NCBI RefSeq assembly: GCF_021028975.2
Contig: NC_059431.1
Coordinates: 41,540,001 to 41,604,000, forward strand
Direction of reading: 5' to 3'
Length of the DNA: 64,000 bases
Source of the DNA: Sphaerodactylus townsendi
Lineage: Eukaryota
Shown here piece by piece: positions 1,595 through 54,070 of this stretch. A program made the translations under genes and the position numbers. Below the pieces are notes generated by a model. The model saw nothing but the letters and a program-made list of their open reading frames with translations. It made no database searches and was not told the DNA's origin. The stretch's first letter is position 1. Every line of letters starts with the position of its first letter.

Positions 1595-2708
1595 CCGTAC
1601 ATACTCATGTATAAGTCGACCCGCATATAAGTCGAGGCACCTAATTTTACCACAAAAAATTGGGAAAACTTATTGACTCACATATAAGTCGAGGGTGGGA
1701 AATGCAGCAGCTACTGGTAAATTTCAAAAAATAAAAATAGATACCAATAAAATTACATTAATTGAAACATCAGTAGGTTAAATGTTTTTGAATATTTATT
1801 TCAAAGAAAAAACAGTAAACTAGCTCTGTAAGTGGAAGACTGTCAACAAGAACAATATGGTATCAACAATAACTTTAAAAGTACAAAAACCTTAGCTTTT
1901 TTGTAAGGAAGGGTTTTAAACAATGGATCTTACAATAAAAACTGGAATGAACATGACTGTTCACTGTGACTCAAAACTCCCCTGCTTTTTAAAAGAATAG
2001 TTCATTATTTTTAGTGTACATATTTTTAAAATTGCACATGGCAGGTGTCATTTTAGAAGGGACATTCACACAACCTGTCAGAGGAGGAATGTTTATGTTA
2101 GCAGTACCAACATTTCAGAATATCTTTAGGAGACCCTCCTGATGATACCACCCAGGTTTGGTGAAGTTTGGTTCAGGGGGTCCAAAGTTGTAGACCCTCA
2201 AAAGGGTAGCCCCATCTACTATTCGCTTCCATTGGAAACAATGGGGGATGGGAACACCCACTTTGGGGATCTATAACTTTGGACTTCCTGAACCAAACAT
2301 CACCAAACCTGGCTGATATCAGCAAGAGATTATCCTGATGATACCACCCAGGTTTAGTGAAGTTTGGTTCAAGGGGTTCAAAGTTATGGACTCTCAAAAT
2401 GTAGCCCCATCCACTATTAGCTCCCATTGGAAACAATGGGGGATGGGGGCACCCCCTTTGTGGGTCCATAACTTTGGACCCCCTGAACCAAATTTTACCA
2501 AACTTGGCAGGTATCATCAGAAGCATCATCTGATGATATCCTGAAATTATGGTGCCACTAGTCTGAAAACTGTGCCCCCAGGCGGCTGACAAAATAAAAA
2601 CCCTAAAATATTTTTTTTAAATACAGCTGACTCGTGTATAAGTCGAGGGGGGCTTTTTCAGCACAAAAAATGTGCTGAAAAACTCGACTTATACACGAGT
2701 ATTTACGA
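1595..2708. mobile_element. Non-autonomous Tc1/mariner (Tc2/pogo-like) DNA transposon with internal palindromic cargo
   Basis: TIRs CCGTACATACTCATGTATAAGTCGA ... TCGACTTATACACGAGTATTTACGA, flanked by TA at 1593-1594 and 2709-2710. TATAAGTCGA is repeated subterminally. Confidence 0.85.
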
Positions 2709-13378: not shown

Positions 13379-14052
13379 CCTTATATAAAGCAGTGGTGCG
13401 ACCGCACTTGGAGTACTGTGTCCAGTTCTGGTTGCCACATCTCAAAAAAGATATTGAAGAGATAGAAAAAGTGCAGAGAAGGGCAACGAGGATGATTGAG
13501 GGACTGGAGCACCTTCCTTATGAGGAGAGGCTGCAGCGTTTGGGACTTTTTAGTTTGGAGAGGAGACGTCTGAGTGGGGATATGATTGAAGTCTATAAAA
13601 TTATGCATGGGATAGAAAATGTTGACAGAGAGAAATTTTTCTCTCTTTCTCACAATACTTGAACCAGGGGGCATACATTGAAAATGCTGGGGGGGAAGAA
13701 TTAGGACTAATAAAAGGAAACACTTCTTCATGCAACGTGTGATTGGTGTTTGGAATATGCTGCCACAGGAGGTGGTGATGGCCACTAACCTGGATAGCTT
13801 TAAGAGGGGCTTGGACAGATTTATGGAGGAGAAGTCGATTTATGGCTACCAATTTTGATCCTCTTTGATCTGAGATTGCAAATGCCTTAACAGTCCAGGT
13901 GCTCGGGAGCTACAGAAGGCCATTACTTTCACATCCTGCATGTGAGCTCCCAATGGCACCTGGTAGGGCACTGCGAGTAGCAGAGAGCTGGACTAGATGG
14001 ACTCTGGTCTGATCCAGCTGGCTTGTTCTTATGTTCTTATGTTCTTATGTTC
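13379..14052 (+). mobile_element. Young 5'-truncated CR1 LINE 3' end
   Basis: [50 protein letters not shown]; tail (ATGTTCTT)n. Confidence 0.95.
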
Positions 14053-29511: not shown

Positions 29512-30408
29512 CAGAGGTACAGGGGCATGACACAGCATACTGCCCAGTTGCCTGCAGGTCAGTGAGCAGTGGGGGGTGGACCCCCTTCCTCCCACCACCC
29601 CAAAGGCCAGCGGGGTCTGCAGGGCCACCAGCAGAGGCTTTCCCACCACCGCCCCCAAAATGGCCAGCTGGGCCAACAGGGCCCTGGCAGAGGCATTCAC
29701 GCACACCCTGCTCCCAAATGTTCACTTTCCCCCACCACTAGCCCTCCCTTGGCATCCTCCCCCACCTCTAACCATCCTAGTCACCTTCCCTCACCTTTAA
29801 CACCTCTTGCCACCCTCCCCACCTCTAGCCAACCCTTCCTGCCATCCCCACCCTAATACTCACCTCCCAACCCCCAATACTCACCTTACCCCACACCTGC
29901 CAATCCTCCTACCACCCCAAATCTCACCTTGCCACCCTCCACCACCTTAACAATCACTTCCCAATCCTTCACCACCTCTAGCCACACCTTCCACACCTTT
30001 CAACCCTTCACCACCTCAAGCCTCACCTTCCAACCTTTCACCATCCCAAGCCTCACCCTGCCATCCTCCCCACTCCAATACTCACCTTCCTACCCTTCCC
30101 CCACCCTAGCCACACCCTCCAACTCTCCCCCACCCCAAGCCTGCTCTGACCCCTGGCTTCCGCTTGCCACCCTGTCCCACCAGAACCCTCCCCTTTCACC
30201 CTCCCCCACCCCAAGTCTCCCCTTTCAACCCTCCCACCATCCCAAGTCACTCTGTTCCAAGCCATTTCTCTCCACCCTCCCCATATCCTCATCAAGATGA
30301 AAAGTGGAGGGAGCCAGAGAGGGCAGCTCCAGAGCCACCCGGGGGGGAGGGGGGTTGCACAAAACTCAGGTTTTTCCCCTGGCTCCATTTTTCCTAGTTA
30401 CACCTCTG
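29512..30408. mobile_element. Old hAT-like element carrying a C-rich minisatellite
   Basis: Termini CAGAGGTAC ... TTACACCTCTG. Right subterminal region resembles 57355-57411. C-rich array at 29730-30290. No TSD recognisable. Confidence 0.45.
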
Positions 30409-39195: not shown

Positions 39196-40673
39196 CAGCC
39201 ATTCTCAACCAGGGTTCCCTGGTACCCTGAGGTGCCATGAGCATGTCCCGGGGGTACCGCGGCAACATTACCACCCCCCCCCCTCATTTTGTGGTGTCTC
39301 CCACCAGTGCCAGCAAGGACATGGAGCTGGCCCATGGGGCAGGGCCTGCCACAAGGTCAGCAGCCACCCCCCCCCCAGTGCTACCCTTAAGAACATAAGA
39401 ACATAAGAACATAAGAACAAGCCGGCTGGATCAGACCAAAGTCCATCTAGTCCAGCTCTCTGCTACTCGCAGTGGCCCACCAGGTGCCTTTGGGAGCTCA
39501 CATGTAGAATGTGAACGCAATGGCCTTCTGCGGCTGTTGCTCCCGAGCACCTGGTCTGTTAAGGCATTTGCAATCTCAGGATCAAGGAGAATCCAAGATT
39601 GGTAGCCATAAAACCGACTTCTCCTCCATGAAATCTGTCCAAAGCCCCTTTTTAAAAGCTATCCAGAGTTAGTTCATGCCCATCACCACCTCCCTTGTGG
39701 CGGCATATTCCAAACACCAATCTACACGTTGCATGAAGACGTGTTTACTTTTATTAGTTCTAAATTCTTCCCCCAGCATTTTCTAAATGAATGCCCCCTG
39801 GTTCCTAGGGTGTTGCCAGGAGAAAGAGAGAAAAATTTCTCTCTCTGGTCAACATTTTCTACCCAGCCATGCATAATTTTGTGAGACTTCAATCCATATC
39901 CCCCCCTCAGCCGCCTCCTCTCCCAAACTAAAGAGTCCCAAAGCGCTGCAGCCCCCCTCTCCTCATAGGGAAGGTGCTCCAGTCCCTCAATCATCCTTGT
40001 TAAAGCCTTTCTGCTGCACTTTTTTCTATCTCCTCAATATCCTTTTTTGTGAGAATCGCGGCGACCATTGAACTGGACACGAGTACTCCAAGTGCAGTTA
40101 AGCATCCACTGCTTTTATATACAAGGGCATGACAATCTTTGCACGTTTTATTCTCAATCTCCTTTTCTAATGATCCCCAGCATAGAGTTTGCCTTTTTTT
40201 ACAGCTGCCATGCATTGAGTGGTGACATTCAGCCATGGAAGACTATCAACTAAAAGAGCGCCCAAATCCGTTTTCCTATGGTCTGCTGACCTGGAAGTAG
40301 CACTGACCCCTGTAGCGATGTATGTGAAGTTTGGATTTTTTGCCCCTATAGTGCATCGCATCTTTACATTTTGCTACATTGAACTGCATTTGCCATTTTC
40401 TGGAGCCCACTCACCCTAATTTATCAAAGGTCCGCTTGGAGCTCTTCGCAATGCTTTGTGGTTCTCACCACCCTACATAATTTGAGTGGCAGGTCATCTA
40501 TACCAAACTTGGCCACCCACGCTACTCCACCCTGGGAGGGGAAGGTGGGGAGTGTATGTGGCAACGTAGGGGCAATGGGAGGGAAGCAGTGGAGGGTTAA
40601 TGGACAGGGGTACCGTGAGATATGAAGAGTGAGGTTAAGGGTACCCTGACCTCAAAAAGGTTGGGAAACACTG
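39196..40673. mobile_element. Non-autonomous hAT (Charlie-like) element interrupted by CR1
   Basis: TIRs CAGCCATTCTCAACC ... GGTTGGGAAACACTG, perfect 8-bp TSD ATCTAGTG. Confidence 0.88.
39388..40531 (-). mobile_element. CR1 LINE 3' portion (same family as 13379-14052)
   Basis: (AAGAACAT)n tail at 39388-39418. Minus-strand [13 protein letters not shown] and KKDIEEIEK. Many small insertions relative to the other copy. Confidence 0.93.
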
Positions 40674-42551
40674 ATCTAGTGCAAGATGGTGAATTGAAAG
40701 CTGCCCCACTAGAAAGCCTACAAGTAGTGCAAAGTGGGGAGGGGGCTGGAAATGATGTAAAGAAATGATTGAAAGGAGCAAATGACATCACAAAAAGGAG
40801 TGGGGTTTGGGAATATAGATGGGAAATGACATAATAATGTGACTCCACTTGCCCTTTGGCCTGAAACTGATGTCACAGGATTTCACAAAGTGGCACCACA
40901 TCCATCCTAAGCTCTACCACTAAAATGTCCAGGTATTTCCCAAGTCAGATCTGGATTCCCTGTTAAATGGTATGACTGACTGAGGTTTGAGTGAATTGAT
41001 GATATGACTGATTAAGGAATGAATTATGCAGTCCTAAAACAGTAATACATTCAAAGTCTAAAGCAATAGGGAAAAATCTGTTGAATTATCATGAGGGAGA
41101 GCAGGCTAAATTTTTTGGTCCAGATCATACTTCAGGGGTGATATTACATAGTACAGAGGAGAATGTCTGCAAAATAAGTACATTATACAGAAATGTGAAG
41201 GGCAAATAATGATATGTTTTTTATTTGACTGTCCTCTGGGAACCATGCATCTCAACTCTGCTATAGTGGAAAACACAGAAATGTAACCACATTAGCAAGC
41301 TATAGTTGTACAAAGCTGAGACCTTTTGCACCGTTAAATGTCTTCATATGTCTATGTTTTATCATTTACACCTCTAATAATAACTTTGTTGTCCTGAGAA
41401 ACCACTACCAAAGCATGGTTATTGCAATAAATATTTCTTTCTATCATAGCCAACAGTGCCAAGGGGCATGCAGCTAGATTGAAAGCGAAGTCAAAAAAGA
41501 TAAGGGTAACAAAGAAAATAAGATATTTTACGTGAAATATTGTGAACTGCACTTAATGCAAAGATTTAATTTTAGAATAGTATTTAGAGTTATTACAAAG
41601 AATTATGCAAAGAATTATGCAAATAATTGAAGAATGAAAATGAGGGAAGGGGTGTGAATATTTTCTTTGACTCACCCCCACCCACCCACCCACTATGGGT
41701 CGGTCTGGTAACAAATGGGTGTATAGGACTGACTTAAGAGTCCTGCTCACATTGTTCGGGTTTTTGTCATTGGTCATTCCAACCCTTAGCAAATTATGTA
41801 TAAGGATACTCTCAGTGGGGTTAGACTGGAATTACTCTTGTACTTCAAGATAAACAAGGACACACATTCTAATCAGTGTCATCAATGCTGTGCAGGGACA
41901 ACCCATCGTCAATTATTGGATTTTTTGGCTTTTATTAGTACAACTGTTTTCTGCCACTCTGTCACCCCTGACTGTTTCTTAACCTAAATTTGTTTTAGCT
42001 TCAGGCTGAAAGAAACGATTCATCATAGGCCAACCTTTGTTTTGAAGGTCTATTTTTTTTTAAAAAAAAATCAAAACAACATTTAGCTGTTCTTGTTTAG
42101 CCATTCACAAAGACTCAGTATATGAAATGTTGCCTGAATTGAGCTGACTATACACGCTTCTCCATTTGTAATAGGAAATGGAAAGGGACCAGGGGAATCT
42201 ACCATCAGTAAATAAATAACATCCTCTGCAACAAGCAGCAAACTTCATCAAACCTTCCCCTTTGGAAAAATGCCTTTCATTATATATCTCACCTGCAGCA
42301 GATCAGTTCTATTGACCAAGAAGACTGGTCCAAGCATGTTATGCTGCAAAAGCTAAAGAAAATTCATGTGTGGTGACCCCAGGTAATCTTTTAAGAATTC
42401 TTGTACTGAAAATACTGGCAGTCACCAATAGTTATTTGCCAACATTTATTCTTATTTACAAAAAACAAAACCAATTCAATTTAATTATCAAAAATTAATC
42501 CTTCAGTTACAGCAACTGACAAATGATTTTGTTTGCATCACTGCCTCCATA

Positions 42552-42784
42552 CCCTGTTTCCCCTAATATAAGACATCCCCGGAAAATAAGACATAGTAGA
42601 GGTTTTGCTGAAGTACGAAATATAAGGCATCCCCCGAAATTAAGACATAGCAAAGTTTTTGTTTGGAAGCATGCCCGACAAACAGAACACAGGAAAAATA
42701 AGACATCCCCTGAAAATAAGACATAGCACATCTTTGGGAGCAAAAATTAATATAAGACACTGTCTTATATTTGGGGAAACACGG
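42552..42784. mobile_element. Tc2/pogo-like MITE
   Basis: TIRs CCCTGTTTCCCCTAATATAAGACA ... TGTCTTATATTTGGGGAAACACGG, TA on both sides, internal ATAAGACA repeats. Confidence 0.9.
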
Positions 42785-43424
42785 TATAAATGTCACCCAG
42801 TGATCAGAACCCTATTCATATCACAGGTTACAACTGAGGTCCTTTTCAGCAATTGGCTAAAACTAAATGTAAAGAACTTTGACTTCAATTCAGTAGCATG
42901 CAGTGTAGGAGAGGGATGAAGTTCAAAGGAATATAGTAGCTTTCCAATACATTAATATCAAAGAGAGTAAAGAAAAGTGGATCAATATTTTCATCAAACA
43001 AAGCAATTGGGAAAGGGTTTTTTTTTCCCTCCTGGAGATAGACTCATCTATGGATGCTGCTTTATCCAGATTGATTTTGCTTAGGTTGAGAACTGTAGTG
43101 TTACCATGCAAGGACAGCTAAACTATACTAGGAAATAGTAGAACTGTGTAGAATAGTAGAATAGGAGAACTGTGTGGCATTAGAGTCTCCTCACTCAGCT
43201 ATGTAAATATCTTGGAGACAGGGTTGTAGTCTGCATTCTACAGATTTTCACCTATATATAGAAGTAGCTTAACCACTGATAGAGAACAATTTAACTTATT
43301 CGTTTAATGTTGTTCTAGATTGTTCTGATCAGGCCTGATTCAGACATCTAGTTAGCTTTCTGATAGCAGATCATTTAACTCCTAGCCAGAGACACACCAC
43401 AGTAATATTTCATTCTGTGTATGG

Positions 43425-50149: not shown

Positions 50150-51950
50150 CCTTCCCCACCCCCAAAATGCCAGCTGGGCCACCTTGCCTCCTTCTCCCAC
50201 CCCAACCATCTCAATTACACCCTCCCCCACCCTCCCCCCACCTTTCAGCGCTCCCTTCACCCTAACCCTCACATTTCCACCCTCTCCCATCGCAATATTC
50301 ATCTTCAACTTCCCCCCTCTCCTAACCATACCTTCCAATCCTCCCCCATCCTAATACTCACTTTCCAAACCTCCTCCCATTCCAAGTGTGGGGACGGGCC
50401 AGAATGTATAAATTTGTATTTAATCAAGAAACATGGAAGTTGCCTGAACCAAAGATTTGATGAATCAAAATGGTTCTCTGTATAAGTGACCAGAAGCCTG
50501 CATGTTAGCAGCAGGTCAAAAGGAATGTTACCAGCTTGTCAGTGAGTATGCAGGCAAGCAAAGATAACATCTTTAAGGTCTTGTAACTACAGGTTACTAT
50601 ATGACAGAAGCCATATAAATTTATGACTTTGTTTTTGGGTTAGAAATGAATGTGATTAGTTAAATTAATAAGTGTTTTTCTATATAGTTAAATGAACACA
50701 GAAATGATAATGAGTGATTCACATGTATTAGTATTTCACTATAATTCTATTGTTTTAGAATCAGTGTATGTATAATCTGTTAAAATCATGTTTTAATATT
50801 TCAAACTGGGGAACAGAGAAGTTTTATGATCTAAAGGAATCCTGCATACCTTAAGGACATATCTCTCTCTGGGAGCAAAACTAAGAAAACAGGTTTTTCT
50901 TGGAGACAGAGGCTAGTTCTATTGCAGCCCTTTCATATGGGCAGAGAGAGGGCTACAAGCCAACAGCATGTGGCGTTTGAGTAACAGAAGGAATGTAATA
51001 CGTAGAATAAGAGGCTGTCTTCATGTGACCAGGAGACAGTTCTATCCAATGAGATTTTTAAGGTACATGCTTGTAGCACGTGAAAGAGGTATGGATTATG
51101 TACGTGAAACATAAGGGGATGAACTGTGTGACGTCTGTATTCTGTATCTATAAAGACTGGGGTCTTTCGTATGTAGGGTGTGTCTCCTTCGAGAGCCACC
51201 CGGGAGGGGTAACCTTCTGTAACTTTCTAAATTCTGTGTCTATAAAATTGGTCCTTTTGTATCAAGGGGGTGCCTCTTACCCTTAAGGGGACACCCTGGT
51301 CAGATACTTATGCTGTCCAGTAAACTTATCTTCTGTTTCAAAACTGTTTCTTGGGTGTTTTCTAACTTTAAGTTTTTCTTAAACTAATTCAGCTGTGTAG
51401 GACCAGAGACGCGGTCCTGGCCCCACACAAGCCTAACATTTCTTCCCTCACCCACTGCAAGCCTCACCTTGCCACCCTCCCCCAACCCAAGCTACACCTT
51501 GCCACCCTCCACCCTAATACTCACCTTCCAATCCTCCCCATCCCAGACTTACCTTTTAACCCTCACCAACCCCAAGCCTCAGCTTGTCACCCTCCCCTAC
51601 CCCTACTCCTACTCACACCTTTCAACCCCACCCAACCATCACATTTCTACCCCAATATTCACCTTCAGCCTTTCCCACCACACATAGCCACACCTTCCAA
51701 CCCTCCCGCACATCAGGCCTAACCTTTTTACCCTGCTGCTACCCCAAGCCTCACTTTGCCACCAGAACCCTCACCTTTCCGCACTCTCCCACCTGAAGCC
51801 TCTCTGTTCAACCCTCTTCCCATTTGCCACTCCAAGTCTCCCCTTTCAACCCTCCCACCACTCTTTTCCATCCTCCTCCACCCCAAACCTCACCTTGCCA
51901 CCCTCCCCCAACCCAAAGTACTCCTCTTCACCCTCTCCCTATCCTCACCA
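50150..51950 (+). repeat. Degenerate C-rich minisatellite split by a solo LTR
   Basis: Units like CCCAAGCCTCACCTTGCCACCCTCC at 50150-50386 and 51428-51950. Same unit at 29730-30290. Confidence 0.8.
50387..51427 (+). mobile_element. Solo LTR (ERV1- or Gypsy-type)
   Basis: TGTGGGG ... CCCCACA termini, 4-bp TSD CAAG, TATAAA at about 51149, AGTAAA at about 51319; length 1041 bp. Confidence 0.85.
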
Positions 51951-52250: not shown

Positions 52251-53555
52251 CAGGGGCGTAACGAGGCAGCCCTGGGCAAACTGTAGCCCTGGGCAAAACC
52301 TGAGTTGGATGCCCCCCAATGGGCAGCCACTCCACCACGACCAATTTTTTTGGCACCAGAATATTGGTGCCTGCAGGGGGTGCATTTTTAGACATATCAT
52401 CACCAAAATTTCAGCATATCATCAGGAGACTGTCCTTATGCTACTCCCCAAGTCTGGTGAGGTTTGATTCAAGGAGTCCAAAGTTATGGGATTTCCTCAG
52501 CATCCCCATTGTGCCAATGGGAGCTAATAGGAGATGGGGGCTACAGTTTTGAGGGTCCATAACTTTGGCCCCCCTGAACCAAACTGCACCAAACCTGGGG
52601 GTATCATCAGGGCAGTCTCCTGATGAGACCCTGAAAGTTTTGAGACTGTGCCTTCAGAATGGTTCCCCTCCTGCCTGCTACCTCCATGGACAGCAATACA
52701 GAAAACTCAATGCAGAACAAAGATTCTTGGGCAAATTTCTGGGATGTTCCTGCAGGGGGTGCATTTTTTGATGTATCAGCACCAAAATTTTAGGGTATCA
52801 TGTGGAAACTGTCTTTATGGTACCCCCAAATTTTGGTGCAGTTTGGTTTAGGGGATTCAAAGTTATGGACCCTCAAAGGGGGTGCCCCATCCCCCATTAT
52901 TTGCTAAGGATATGGGGGCTACCCTTTGAGGGTCCATAACTTTGGACCCCCTGAACCAAACTGCACCAAACTTGGGGGGTGCCATCATCTCCAGATGATA
53001 CCCTGAAATTTTGGTGCCGATACATCCAAAAATGCACCCCCTGCAGGAACATCCCAGAAATTTGCCCAAGAATCTTTGTTCTGCATTGAGTTTTCTGCAT
53101 TGCTGTCAATGGGGGTTCCAGGCTGTGGGGGGGGGGACATTTCTGAAGGCACAGTCTCAAAACTTTCAGGGTCTCATCAGGGGACTGCCCTGATGATACC
53201 CCCCAGGTTTGGTGCAGTTTGGTTCAGGGGGGGCAAAGTTATGGACCCTCAAAACTGTAGCCCCCATCTCCTATTAGCTCCCATTGGAAACAATGGGGGA
53301 TAGGGGCACCCCCACTGGGAGTCCATAACTTTGGACTCCCTGAACCAAACCTCACCAAACTTGGGGGGTAGCATAAGGACAGTCTCCTGATGATACGCTG
53401 AAATTTTGTTGTCTCTAGCCTAAAAACTGCGCCCCCTGCAGGCCAGAAATGGAAAACCACTAAAATACCCAAAAACGAACCCAGCATTTTGATGCCCCCC
53501 ACAAGGTGATGCCCTGGGCAGCTGCCCACCTTGCCCAATGGGCATTACGCCAGTG
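52251..53555. mobile_element. Non-autonomous hAT (Tip100-like termini) element with ~1.07-kb internal fold-back
   Basis: Termini CAGGGGCGTAA ... TTACGCCAGTG, perfect 8-bp TSD AAAGATCC. Internal arms about 52369-52885 and 52915-53443 are reverse complements. Confidence 0.9.
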
Positions 53556-54070
53556 AAAGATCCCTCTCCTTTCTTCTACTAGCAAAAGAGGAGAGGCAGA
53601 CACACAGGCACATATAGACTTCCCAGATACCCAGACTGAGCACTTGCATAGATAGTTTGCTGTTCTTATATTTAGTATAAATTCATTTGTTATCTAGTAA
53701 GTTCTACAAAACCACTCACTTTGTTTTGTTCTGCCCTATTATTTGCTTTACTAATTCATTGCAATACATCACCAAGGCTCCATATGCTGTGTTTCCATGG
53801 ACTGTACTCTGTGTGCACATGATGAAAAAAAGATTTGTAGTTGCTTCTTGCATTTTAGGCTAAGAGTGGCTTTACAATAAAATTTTACGTCTACCTCTAT
53901 GGTTCAAATCTACCATAATGTGAAGTAATCTCAAGCCTTCTCTCTGTTCCTTTATGTATCCAAAACTTCTCTTGATGCAAACCTATCCAGAATTTTCATG
54001 GTATTTCTTTTGTACCTGCTCTCATATGCTTCTTTTCAGACTTTTGAGCAGAAACTGTACAGTAATGCCA

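What the first reader, a model, noticed from the sequence alone, without database searches (positions are those of the whole stretch)
2110..2600. The same nested-palindrome cargo sits inside two unrelated DNA-transposon superfamilies
Seen: the unit TGATGATACC(A/C)CCCAGGTTTGGTG(A/C)AGTTTGGTTCAGGGGG(T/G)CCAAAGTTATGGACCCTCAAAA, the spacer CCCATC..CTATTAGCTCCCATTGGAAACAATGGGGGAT and a closing ..CTGAAATT..TAG..T.AAAACTG.GCCCCC motif alternate in orientation here, inside a Tc2/pogo-like shell with TA TSD (1595-2708). The same parts occur at 52369-53443 inside a hAT shell with an 8-bp TSD. Established: these superfamilies use different transposases and TIRs and do not normally share internal sequence. 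Inference: the module is a passenger that moves between non-autonomous elements, either as an independent element (it loosely recalls Helitron/Helentron-type internal repeats) or by capture during gap repair. This is the best candidate in the window for an undescribed system.
Basis: partly seen in the sequence, partly recalled or inferred. Interest (0 to 1): 0.7.

Follow-up and report, generated by a model that had tools for sequence, protein, structure and literature searches.

The report
Hairpin cargo in three transposon superfamilies
A non-coding DNA hairpin found at about ten thousand sites in a likely lizard genome rides inside small jumping elements of three unrelated kinds, has no ends of its own, and is missing from the enzyme-coding parents examined for two of the kinds, so it was likely copied from one kind into the others and then spread by each kind's own enzyme.

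Summary
Observation confirmed and extended. Both window elements are families, not one-offs. A 29-base core of the hairpin has 10,267 exact matches in the genome. Of 84 clusters sampled by that core, 71 sit in CAG-type hAT MITEs, 8 in the Tc2 shell, 3 in a TAG-type hAT, 1 is nested and 1 unresolved. A third superfamily, a PIF/Harbinger-like MITE with 3-bp TSD, carries it in 29 of 30 copies. Seven full-length hATs, six Tc2 transposase loci and one Helitron lack it. No free-standing copy, fixed end or own TSD was found, so an independent or Helentron element is not supported. The Tc2 cargo is colinear with a different hAT MITE (87% over 500 bp), and some Tc2 copies keep extra hAT-internal flank. 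Best reading: passive cargo of a hAT MITE network, moved into Tc2 and Harbinger shells by repair capture or by insertion with end loss. Independent captures are favoured, not proven (AU p 0.195). The hairpin's ultimate origin is unknown. The scan noted similar end-swapping cores, and possibly this module in a Helitron, on other DNA of this genome. New variant of known inter-element capture.

The parts
1595..2708 (+). Non-autonomous Tc2/pogo-like element, TA at 1593-1594 and 2709-2710
   Evidence: family of copies at 90-93% identity
1595..1897 (+). Tc2 shell, long arm shared with transposase-carrying parents
   Evidence: 91% over 305 columns to L363; 84-91% to six DDE_1 loci
1898..2073 (+). Filler of unknown origin, specific to one Tc2 junction class
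   Evidence: outside the 30 best-hit loci it matches only one other Tc2 composite, held twice as L125/L162
2076..2611 (.). Cargo: two tandem hairpin units (period about 195 bp) plus A-rich tail; no hAT TIR or TSD
   Evidence: 87.4% colinear over 500 bp (2076-2574) with hAT MITE L089:1284-2701; tail to 2611 matches hAT MITE L124
2630..2708 (+). Tc2 shell, short arm
   Evidence: 89% over 73 bp to parent L363
52243..52250 (+). 8-bp target-site duplication, left copy
   Evidence: identical to 53556-53563
52251..53555 (+). Non-autonomous hAT element with CAG-type ends
   Evidence: family at 95-98% identity in its right end
52251..52359 (+). hAT shell end shared with an 8.1-kb transposase element
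   Evidence: 73-74% over 109 bp to L251 and L254 elements
52364..53455 (.). Cargo: three hairpin units joined by linkers; 52369-53443 is itself an 85.6% palindrome
53509..53555 (+). Other hAT shell end shared with the same parent
   Evidence: 85% over 47 bp
53556..53563 (+). 8-bp target-site duplication, right copy

Best explanation
The hairpin is non-coding cargo without ends of its own that fills many non-autonomous hAT families and was likely copied from such hAT elements, in probably separate events, into a Tc2/pogo-like shell and a Harbinger-like shell, each of which then likely spread it with its own transposase. Shown: multi-copy composites with the TSD typical of each shell; transposase-carrying hAT and Tc2 parents that lack the cargo; breakpoints that vary between shells; hAT-internal flank inside some Tc2 copies. 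Inferred: the direction (hAT MITE to the others) and the route. I put template switching during repair of an excision gap or a hairpin-stalled fork at about 55% of this explanation, and nested insertion of a hAT MITE followed by loss of both hAT ends at about 45%. Tandem and inverted units likely arise by recombination between the hairpin's own arms.
For: Census: 80 of 97 clusters lie in CAG-type hAT context. 35 have a TIR pair with an 8-bp TSD (23 perfect, 12 with one mismatch) and at least five end types. Parents lack the cargo: best nhmmer E 0.13 over 7 full-length hATs, 6 Tc2 loci and 1 Helitron, against 2e-48 for the control. The window's Tc2 cargo matches hAT MITE L089 in one 500-bp block at 87.4%, but the window's own hAT only at 82.5% over 280 bp. 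One Tc2 junction class carries about 80 bp of a second hAT-internal palindrome upstream of the hairpin (87% over 246 columns to L089). The left-arm tree joins Tc2 with a minor hAT subfamily and Harbinger with the major one (support 86/96; 7 columns against 3). At least four left junctions and two right junctions occur in Tc2; the Harbinger copies break at the apex of the spacer hairpin. Hairpin-bearing hATs were seen inserted in a Harbinger copy (L184) and in a Helitron, so the insertion route has raw material. Capture of other superfamilies' fragments and inter-element recombination are described in Anolis hobo (PMC3014272).
Against: The AU test does not reject Tc2 plus Harbinger as one clade (p 0.195; only 3 minor-hAT rows, 152 columns). 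An earlier run without minor-hAT rows was uninformative (p 1). The trees are unrooted, so back-transfer from Tc2 into the minor hAT subfamily is possible. Divergence does not order the shells clearly: hAT groups 5.3-11.5%, Tc2 8.5%, TAG-type 10.0%, Harbinger 5.8%, with mixed groups. Junction overlap is only about 2 bp in one class, which chance can give. No source locus for the hairpin was found. The TAG-type hAT parent was not examined and the Harbinger parent was not found (0 of 6 loci examined, of 152 matches). The census comes from the first 100 of 10,267 matches, all within 24 Mb of one contig, and its 29-mer under-samples Harbinger copies.
Confidence: 0.68

Rival explanations
1. The hairpin is native internal or subterminal sequence of an autonomous element not examined here (for example the TAG-type hAT parent), and reached the CAG-type hATs, Tc2 and Harbinger from its deletion derivatives.
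For: The TAG-type family (about 2.45 kb, 8-bp TSD in L181) has six hairpin blocks, divergent variants and 10% divergence. Its parent was not searched.
Against: It is a small minority (4 of 97 clusters). Tc2 and Harbinger arms group with CAG-type hAT arms, not with TAG-type arms.
Confidence: 0.14
2. The hairpin is favoured cargo: it works as a transposase-independent enhancer of transposition (bending or bringing the ends together) or as a fragile template-switch hub, so shells of any superfamily that gain it out-amplify their siblings.
For: 27 of 30 Tc2 right ends and 29 of 30 Harbinger left ends carry it, although it makes up only about 0.25% of background DNA (6 clusters in 809 kb). Internal sequences modulate mPing mobility (PMC9921582, abstract).
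Against: The families were found from the cargo, so ascertainment is strong. The number of MITE families without it is unknown. The Harbinger family keeps only half a hairpin in its shortest copies. No functional test was done. This rival adds to the best explanation and does not exclude it.
Confidence: 0.12
3. The hairpin is an independent mobile element (Helentron/HINE-like, or a MITE with its own ends) that inserts into other elements.
For: Strong fold and high copy number. An unreviewed note (e1-9846172) reports a 195-bp palindromic array inside a Helitron in this genome, which may be the same unit.
Against: No free-standing copy: 2 of 97 clusters were unresolved, and both have hAT-type flank. 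The longest direct repeat at cluster edges averages 4.25 bp against 4.36 bp for shuffled pairs (71 clusters). Ends vary by shell. In the Helitron with a 1520-aa ORF it occurs only as a nested hAT with an 8-bp TSD. 13 of 14 Helitron 3' ends have no hit within 1.5 kb, and one has an 18-bp hit. The Helitron-hairpin junction of L292 is spanned only by itself among 40 scored candidates.
Confidence: 0.06

Closest known systems
hobo_AC and hobo-N families of Anolis carolinensis (Novick et al., PMC3014272; read parts 2-3 of 6 and passages)
   Same: Lizard non-autonomous DNA transposons that take up fragments of other classes and superfamilies (Chapaev, CR1, Penelope, SINE), swap ends by inter-element recombination, and amplify the cargo. 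Its tables list TAG-type hAT TIRs and Tc2-related TcMar-N4/N6.
   Different: There one hAT lineage carries assorted old fragments. Here one hairpin is the main cargo of amplified families in three superfamilies. The word 'palindrom' does not occur in that paper.
CMITE families of Acropora corals (Wang et al., PMC2872659; read abstract and Discussion)
   Same: Internal region more conserved than the TIRs, of unknown origin, with tandem arrays.
   Different: All CMITE ends are piggyBac-type, one superfamily. Here the ends belong to hAT (two TIR classes), Tc1/mariner-pogo and a Harbinger-like shell.
Animal Pack-TIRs, gap-filling and FoSTeST models (Tan et al., PMC8277862; passages)
   Same: Filler between TIR ends acquired by template switching, short or no microhomology, occasional de novo insertions at junctions, later amplification.
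   Different: Pack-TIR cargo is non-TE host sequence and multicopy cases are rare (4 in reference genomes). Here the cargo comes from another transposon's interior and reaches hundreds to thousands of copies.
DINE-1/HINE non-autonomous Helentrons (PMC4067079; passages)
   Same: Non-coding, palindromic, may hold internal tandem repeats.
   Different: HINEs have fixed subTIR and 3' stem-loop ends and insert at TT. This cargo has no fixed ends and sits inside TIR shells with TA, 3-bp or 8-bp TSDs.

Membership tests
Tc2/pogo-like non-autonomous element (shell 1595-2708) | TA target duplication and TIRs | tested here: met
   TA on both sides; 22 of 26 TIR bases match
Tc2/pogo-like non-autonomous element (shell 1595-2708) | Ends shared with a pogo-type DDE transposase element | tested here: met
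   6 of 18 DDE_1 loci fetched (of 46 matches) share the long arm at 84-91%; the L356 ORF has DDE_1, HTH_Tnp_Tc5 and BrkDBD
Tc2/pogo-like non-autonomous element (shell 1595-2708) | Catalytic triad spacing and phylogenetic placement among Tc2 proper | not tested
   The label Tc2 rests on TIR likeness to TcMar-N4/N6 in PMC3014272 and on recall
hAT non-autonomous element (shell 52251-53555) | 8-bp TSD and short TIR | tested here: met
   Perfect TSD; 35 census elements with 7 or 8 of 8 matching bases
hAT non-autonomous element (shell 52251-53555) | Ends shared with a hAT transposase element | tested here: met
   8,136-bp element L251+L271 with its own TSD and a 933-aa ORF carrying DUF4371 and Dimer_Tnp_hAT. 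The Tip100 group label is recalled, not tested
PIF/Harbinger (third shell, e.g. L313:1501-1986) | 3-bp A/T-rich TSD and short TIR | tested here: met
   Exact 3-bp TSD in 11 of 22 copies with both ends; 15 of 38 distinct flank pairs against a shuffle mean of 1.7, maximum 8 in 10,000; 16-bp imperfect TIR
PIF/Harbinger (third shell, e.g. L313:1501-1986) | Autonomous partner with DDE_Tnp_4 transposase and matching TIR | tested here: inconclusive
   0 of 6 loci examined, of 152 matches
Helentron/HINE (cargo as its own element) | Fixed subTIR and 3' stem-loop termini, free insertions at TT | tested here: not met
   No shell-free copy in 97 clusters; variable breakpoints
Helentron/HINE (cargo as its own element) | Sequence shared with an autonomous Rep/Helicase partner | tested here: inconclusive
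   Absent from the one near-intact Helitron. 2 of 12 Rep-domain loci had nearby hits: one a Harbinger-shell fragment, one a single-copy junction. Endonuclease-bearing Helentrons were not sought
Independent MITE (cargo as its own element) | Own TSD at constant ends | tested here: not met
   Edge repeats no longer than in shuffled pairs, 71 clusters
Pack-TIR | Cargo copied from a non-TE host locus | tested here: not met
   Nearest relatives of the Tc2 cargo are hAT MITE interiors; no unique host source seen in the loci held
Pack-TIR | Microhomology at junctions | tested here: inconclusive
   About 2 bp overlap in one class; fillers of 4, about 46 and about 175 bp in others
Already catalogued Repbase/Dfam family | Match to a deposited consensus | not testable with these tools

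The most novel reading that the evidence does not exclude
The hairpin is a selfish 'universal cargo' with no ends or enzyme of its own. It promotes its own copying into freshly excised transposons of any superfamily and raises their mobility, so it outlives each transposase wave by changing shells across hAT, Tc1/mariner, Harbinger and perhaps Helitron.
Probability: 0.13. Interest if true: 0.78.

Novelty: new variant of a known kind. Interest (0 to 1): 0.45.

Why it matters
MITEs are classified by their ends, and internal sequence is usually taken as family-specific. Here one interior is shared by amplified families of three superfamilies. Similarity-based repeat libraries would merge or mislabel them, and the cargo's history is uncoupled from any one transposase. 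Transposase ORFs with matching ends exist in the same genome for two of the shells (933-aa hAT, about 480-aa pogo-like). That makes an old open question testable: whether a conserved MITE interior (as in coral CMITEs) helps transposition or is only a hitch-hiker.

Tried and rejected
1. Helitron/Helentron origin: Rep-domain loci, one near-intact Helitron, 14 Helitron 3' ends and the L292 junction gave no native copy. Long tandem arrays were not searched genome-wide, so the array reported in note e1-9846172 remains unlocated.
2. Cargo native to autonomous CAG-type hATs or Tc2 parents: rejected for 7 and 6 elements. Other DUF4371 loci lacked a recognisable TIR pair and were not counted.
3. Harbinger parent: not found in 6 of 152 loci.
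4. AU tests: one search was uninformative; one search gave p 0.195. The 136-row and 84-row trees mix left and right arms and served only for grouping; rows were randomly subsampled.
5. Known RNA family: 9 Rfam hits, all far below their gathering scores, as expected for any long hairpin.
6. Public runs: 19 of 20 listed runs (8 studies, 10 coded organisms) hold part of 53130-53450. Contigs of four runs laid on 1500-2800 cover shell and cargo, but no listed piece spans the whole stretch, so nothing is concluded on age or host range.
7. Earlier-finding look-ups by sequence and by words were empty.
8. Literature: searches returned no papers. Searches were seen as listings only; none described one palindromic cargo across hAT, Tc1/mariner and Harbinger MITEs. 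The library lacks most subscription papers and Repbase Reports. No supplements were read.

Full report
Observation. The two elements are as described. A Tc2/pogo-like element spans 1595-2708 with TA on both sides and 22 of 26 terminal bases inverted. A hAT element spans 52251-53555 with a perfect 8-bp TSD. Their interiors align at 82.5% over 280 bp. The shared unit is a hairpin with arms of about 150 bp around a short spacer that is itself a small hairpin. The Tc2 copy holds two units in tandem (period about 195 bp) and the hAT copy three, whose whole array is an 85.6% palindrome. Folding z-scores are -14.3 and -11.6. The host is a 1.81-Gb genome; 'lizard, likely gecko' comes from unreviewed earlier notes and my recall of the repeat types, not from a test.

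Neither composite is a one-off. All 30 best hits of the Tc2-type cargo (self included) have the Tc2 short arm, and 23 of 30 also have the long arm. Sampling by the shell instead, a Tc2 right-end 27-mer has 1,431 exact matches; 27 of the first 30 carry the cargo and 3 carry other filler. All 30 best hits of the hAT right end have that end and the cargo, and 28 of 30 have the other end. A 29-mer from the arm has 10,267 exact matches and its reversed control none. Background DNA held 6 clusters in 809 kb, which gives about 13,000 loci (95% interval 5,000-29,000) and about 0.25% of the sequence.

Census of shells. I fetched loci around the first 100 matches of the 29-mer (all on contig C1, first 24 Mb), giving 97 clusters outside the window. 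By alignment to reference slices, the 84 clusters holding the 29-mer split into 71 CAG-type hAT, 8 Tc2, 3 TAG-type hAT, 1 hAT nested in a Harbinger-like copy and 1 unresolved. The 13 bystander clusters split into 9 CAG-type hAT, 2 Harbinger-like, 1 TAG-type and 1 unresolved. One bystander (M017) lies inside a TAG-type element but was scored CAG-type through a shared linker. Thirty-five hAT elements have a TIR pair and an 8-bp TSD (23 perfect), with at least five end types. The TAG-type family is about 2.45 kb long with six hairpin blocks.

A third superfamily. A family of about 420-700 bp with a 16-bp imperfect TIR carries one arm plus half the spacer, or one further unit. Its left-end 30-mer has 342 exact matches; 29 of the first 30 carry the cargo, and the last breaks off at the cargo's start. 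An exact 3-bp, A/T-rich TSD is present in 11 of 22 copies with both ends, and in 15 of 38 distinct flank pairs against a shuffle mean of 1.7. This fits PIF/Harbinger (established knowledge of that superfamily's TSD). No matching transposase element was found in 6 of 152 DDE_Tnp_4 loci.

The parents lack the cargo. A DUF4371 search led to seven full-length hATs of 6.9-14.1 kb with TIR pairs and TSDs. One, L251+L271, shares 109 bp and 47 bp with the two ends of the window's hAT and has a 933-aa transposase ORF. Other MITE end types match other parents. Six of 18 DDE_1 loci fetched share the long arm of the Tc2 shell at 84-91%. A profile search at maximal sensitivity finds no arm in any of these 13, nor in a Helitron with a 1520-aa ORF once its nested hAT is removed (best E 0.13; control 2e-48).

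It is not an element of its own. No cluster is clearly shell-free. Direct repeats at cluster edges are no longer than in shuffled pairs (4.25 against 4.36 bp, 71 clusters). Its extent differs by shell: at least four left and two right junctions among 42 Tc2 copies, and a break at the spacer apex in most Harbinger copies. In the Helitron it is a complete nested hAT with an 8-bp TSD. Thirteen of 14 Helitron 3' ends have no hit within 1.5 kb, and one Helitron-hairpin junction is single-copy among 40 scored. The HINE features listed in PMC4067079 (passages) are not met.

Likely donor. The window's Tc2 cargo (2076-2574) is colinear with the interior of a different hAT MITE (L089) at 87.4% over 500 bp. 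One Tc2 class extends about 80 bp further into a second hAT-internal palindrome before joining the Tc2 arm, and no hAT TIR was seen at the junctions. On left arms (39 rows: 12 of 23 Tc2, 12 of 26 Harbinger, 12 of 30 major hAT, 3 of 3 minor hAT) the tree joins Tc2 with the minor hAT subfamily and Harbinger with the major one (86/96; 7 against 3 diagnostic columns). The AU test does not reject a single Tc2+Harbinger origin (p 0.195). Right arms put Tc2 with a subset of the same hAT group. Divergence from group majority (5-12%) does not order the shells. Direction and number of transfers are therefore inferred.

Mechanism. Two routes fit. [quoted passage not shown] The other is insertion of a cargo-bearing hAT followed by loss of both its ends; such nested insertions are seen directly. 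After either, the shell's transposase amplified the composite. Whether the hairpin is favoured is open: near-fixation in the Tc2 and Harbinger families is suggestive, and internal sequence does tune mPing mobility (PMC9921582, abstract), but ascertainment is strong.

Comparison and verdict. Capture of other superfamilies' fragments and end exchange are described in Anolis (PMC3014272), and a conserved interior with variable ends in coral CMITEs (PMC2872659). In nine searches I found no report of one palindromic interior dominating amplified MITE families of hAT, Tc1/mariner and Harbinger; Repbase and Dfam could not be checked. This is a real, well-supported new variant of known inter-element capture, not a new kind of element. 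Interest 0.45.

Noticed in passing
G000:C3, about 5.1-13.1 Mb: Transposase-domain hits cluster here: 4 of 20 DUF4371, 7 of 46 DDE_1 and 8 of 150 listed DDE_Tnp_4 matches, most without stops, in about 0.45% of the genome. It looks like a transposon trap or piRNA-cluster-like region (inference).
   Followed up: no
L251+L271, L253+L273, L283+L255+L278, L259: Full-length hATs are unusually long (6.9-14.1 kb) with ORFs of 870-1040 aa, and form several subfamilies at 74-90% nucleotide identity, each with its own ends.
   Followed up: partly
L327+L328 (G000:C6:121.15-121.16 Mb): Near-intact Helitron with a 1520-aa Rep/Helicase ORF; a copy of the window's hAT family is inserted in its 5' region.
   Followed up: partly
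e.g. L089:1900-2100, L184:4320-4720, L010: A second, unrelated palindromic block travels next to the hairpin in many hAT MITEs and in one Tc2 class.
   Followed up: partly
L156, L164, L175: Cargo-free Tc2 copies carry other fillers, one with a purine-rich tandem repeat shared by L156 and L164.
   Followed up: partly
L184:4078-5367; L303; L066: Cargo-bearing or related hATs inserted inside Harbinger-like copies (in L184 within the hairpin arm itself) and beside a Tc2 end.
   Followed up: partly
window 42547-42788: Another short repeat with three internal direct repeats and up to 15 overlapping hits in held loci; resembles a second Tc2-type MITE (resemblance recalled).
   Followed up: no
window 29717-30239 and 50176-51941: Two degenerate C-rich arrays with a 29-30-bp period, related to each other and 20 kb apart.
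   Followed up: no
window 13908-14052 and 39391-39535: Inverted pair at 92%, part of a common interspersed repeat.
   Followed up: no
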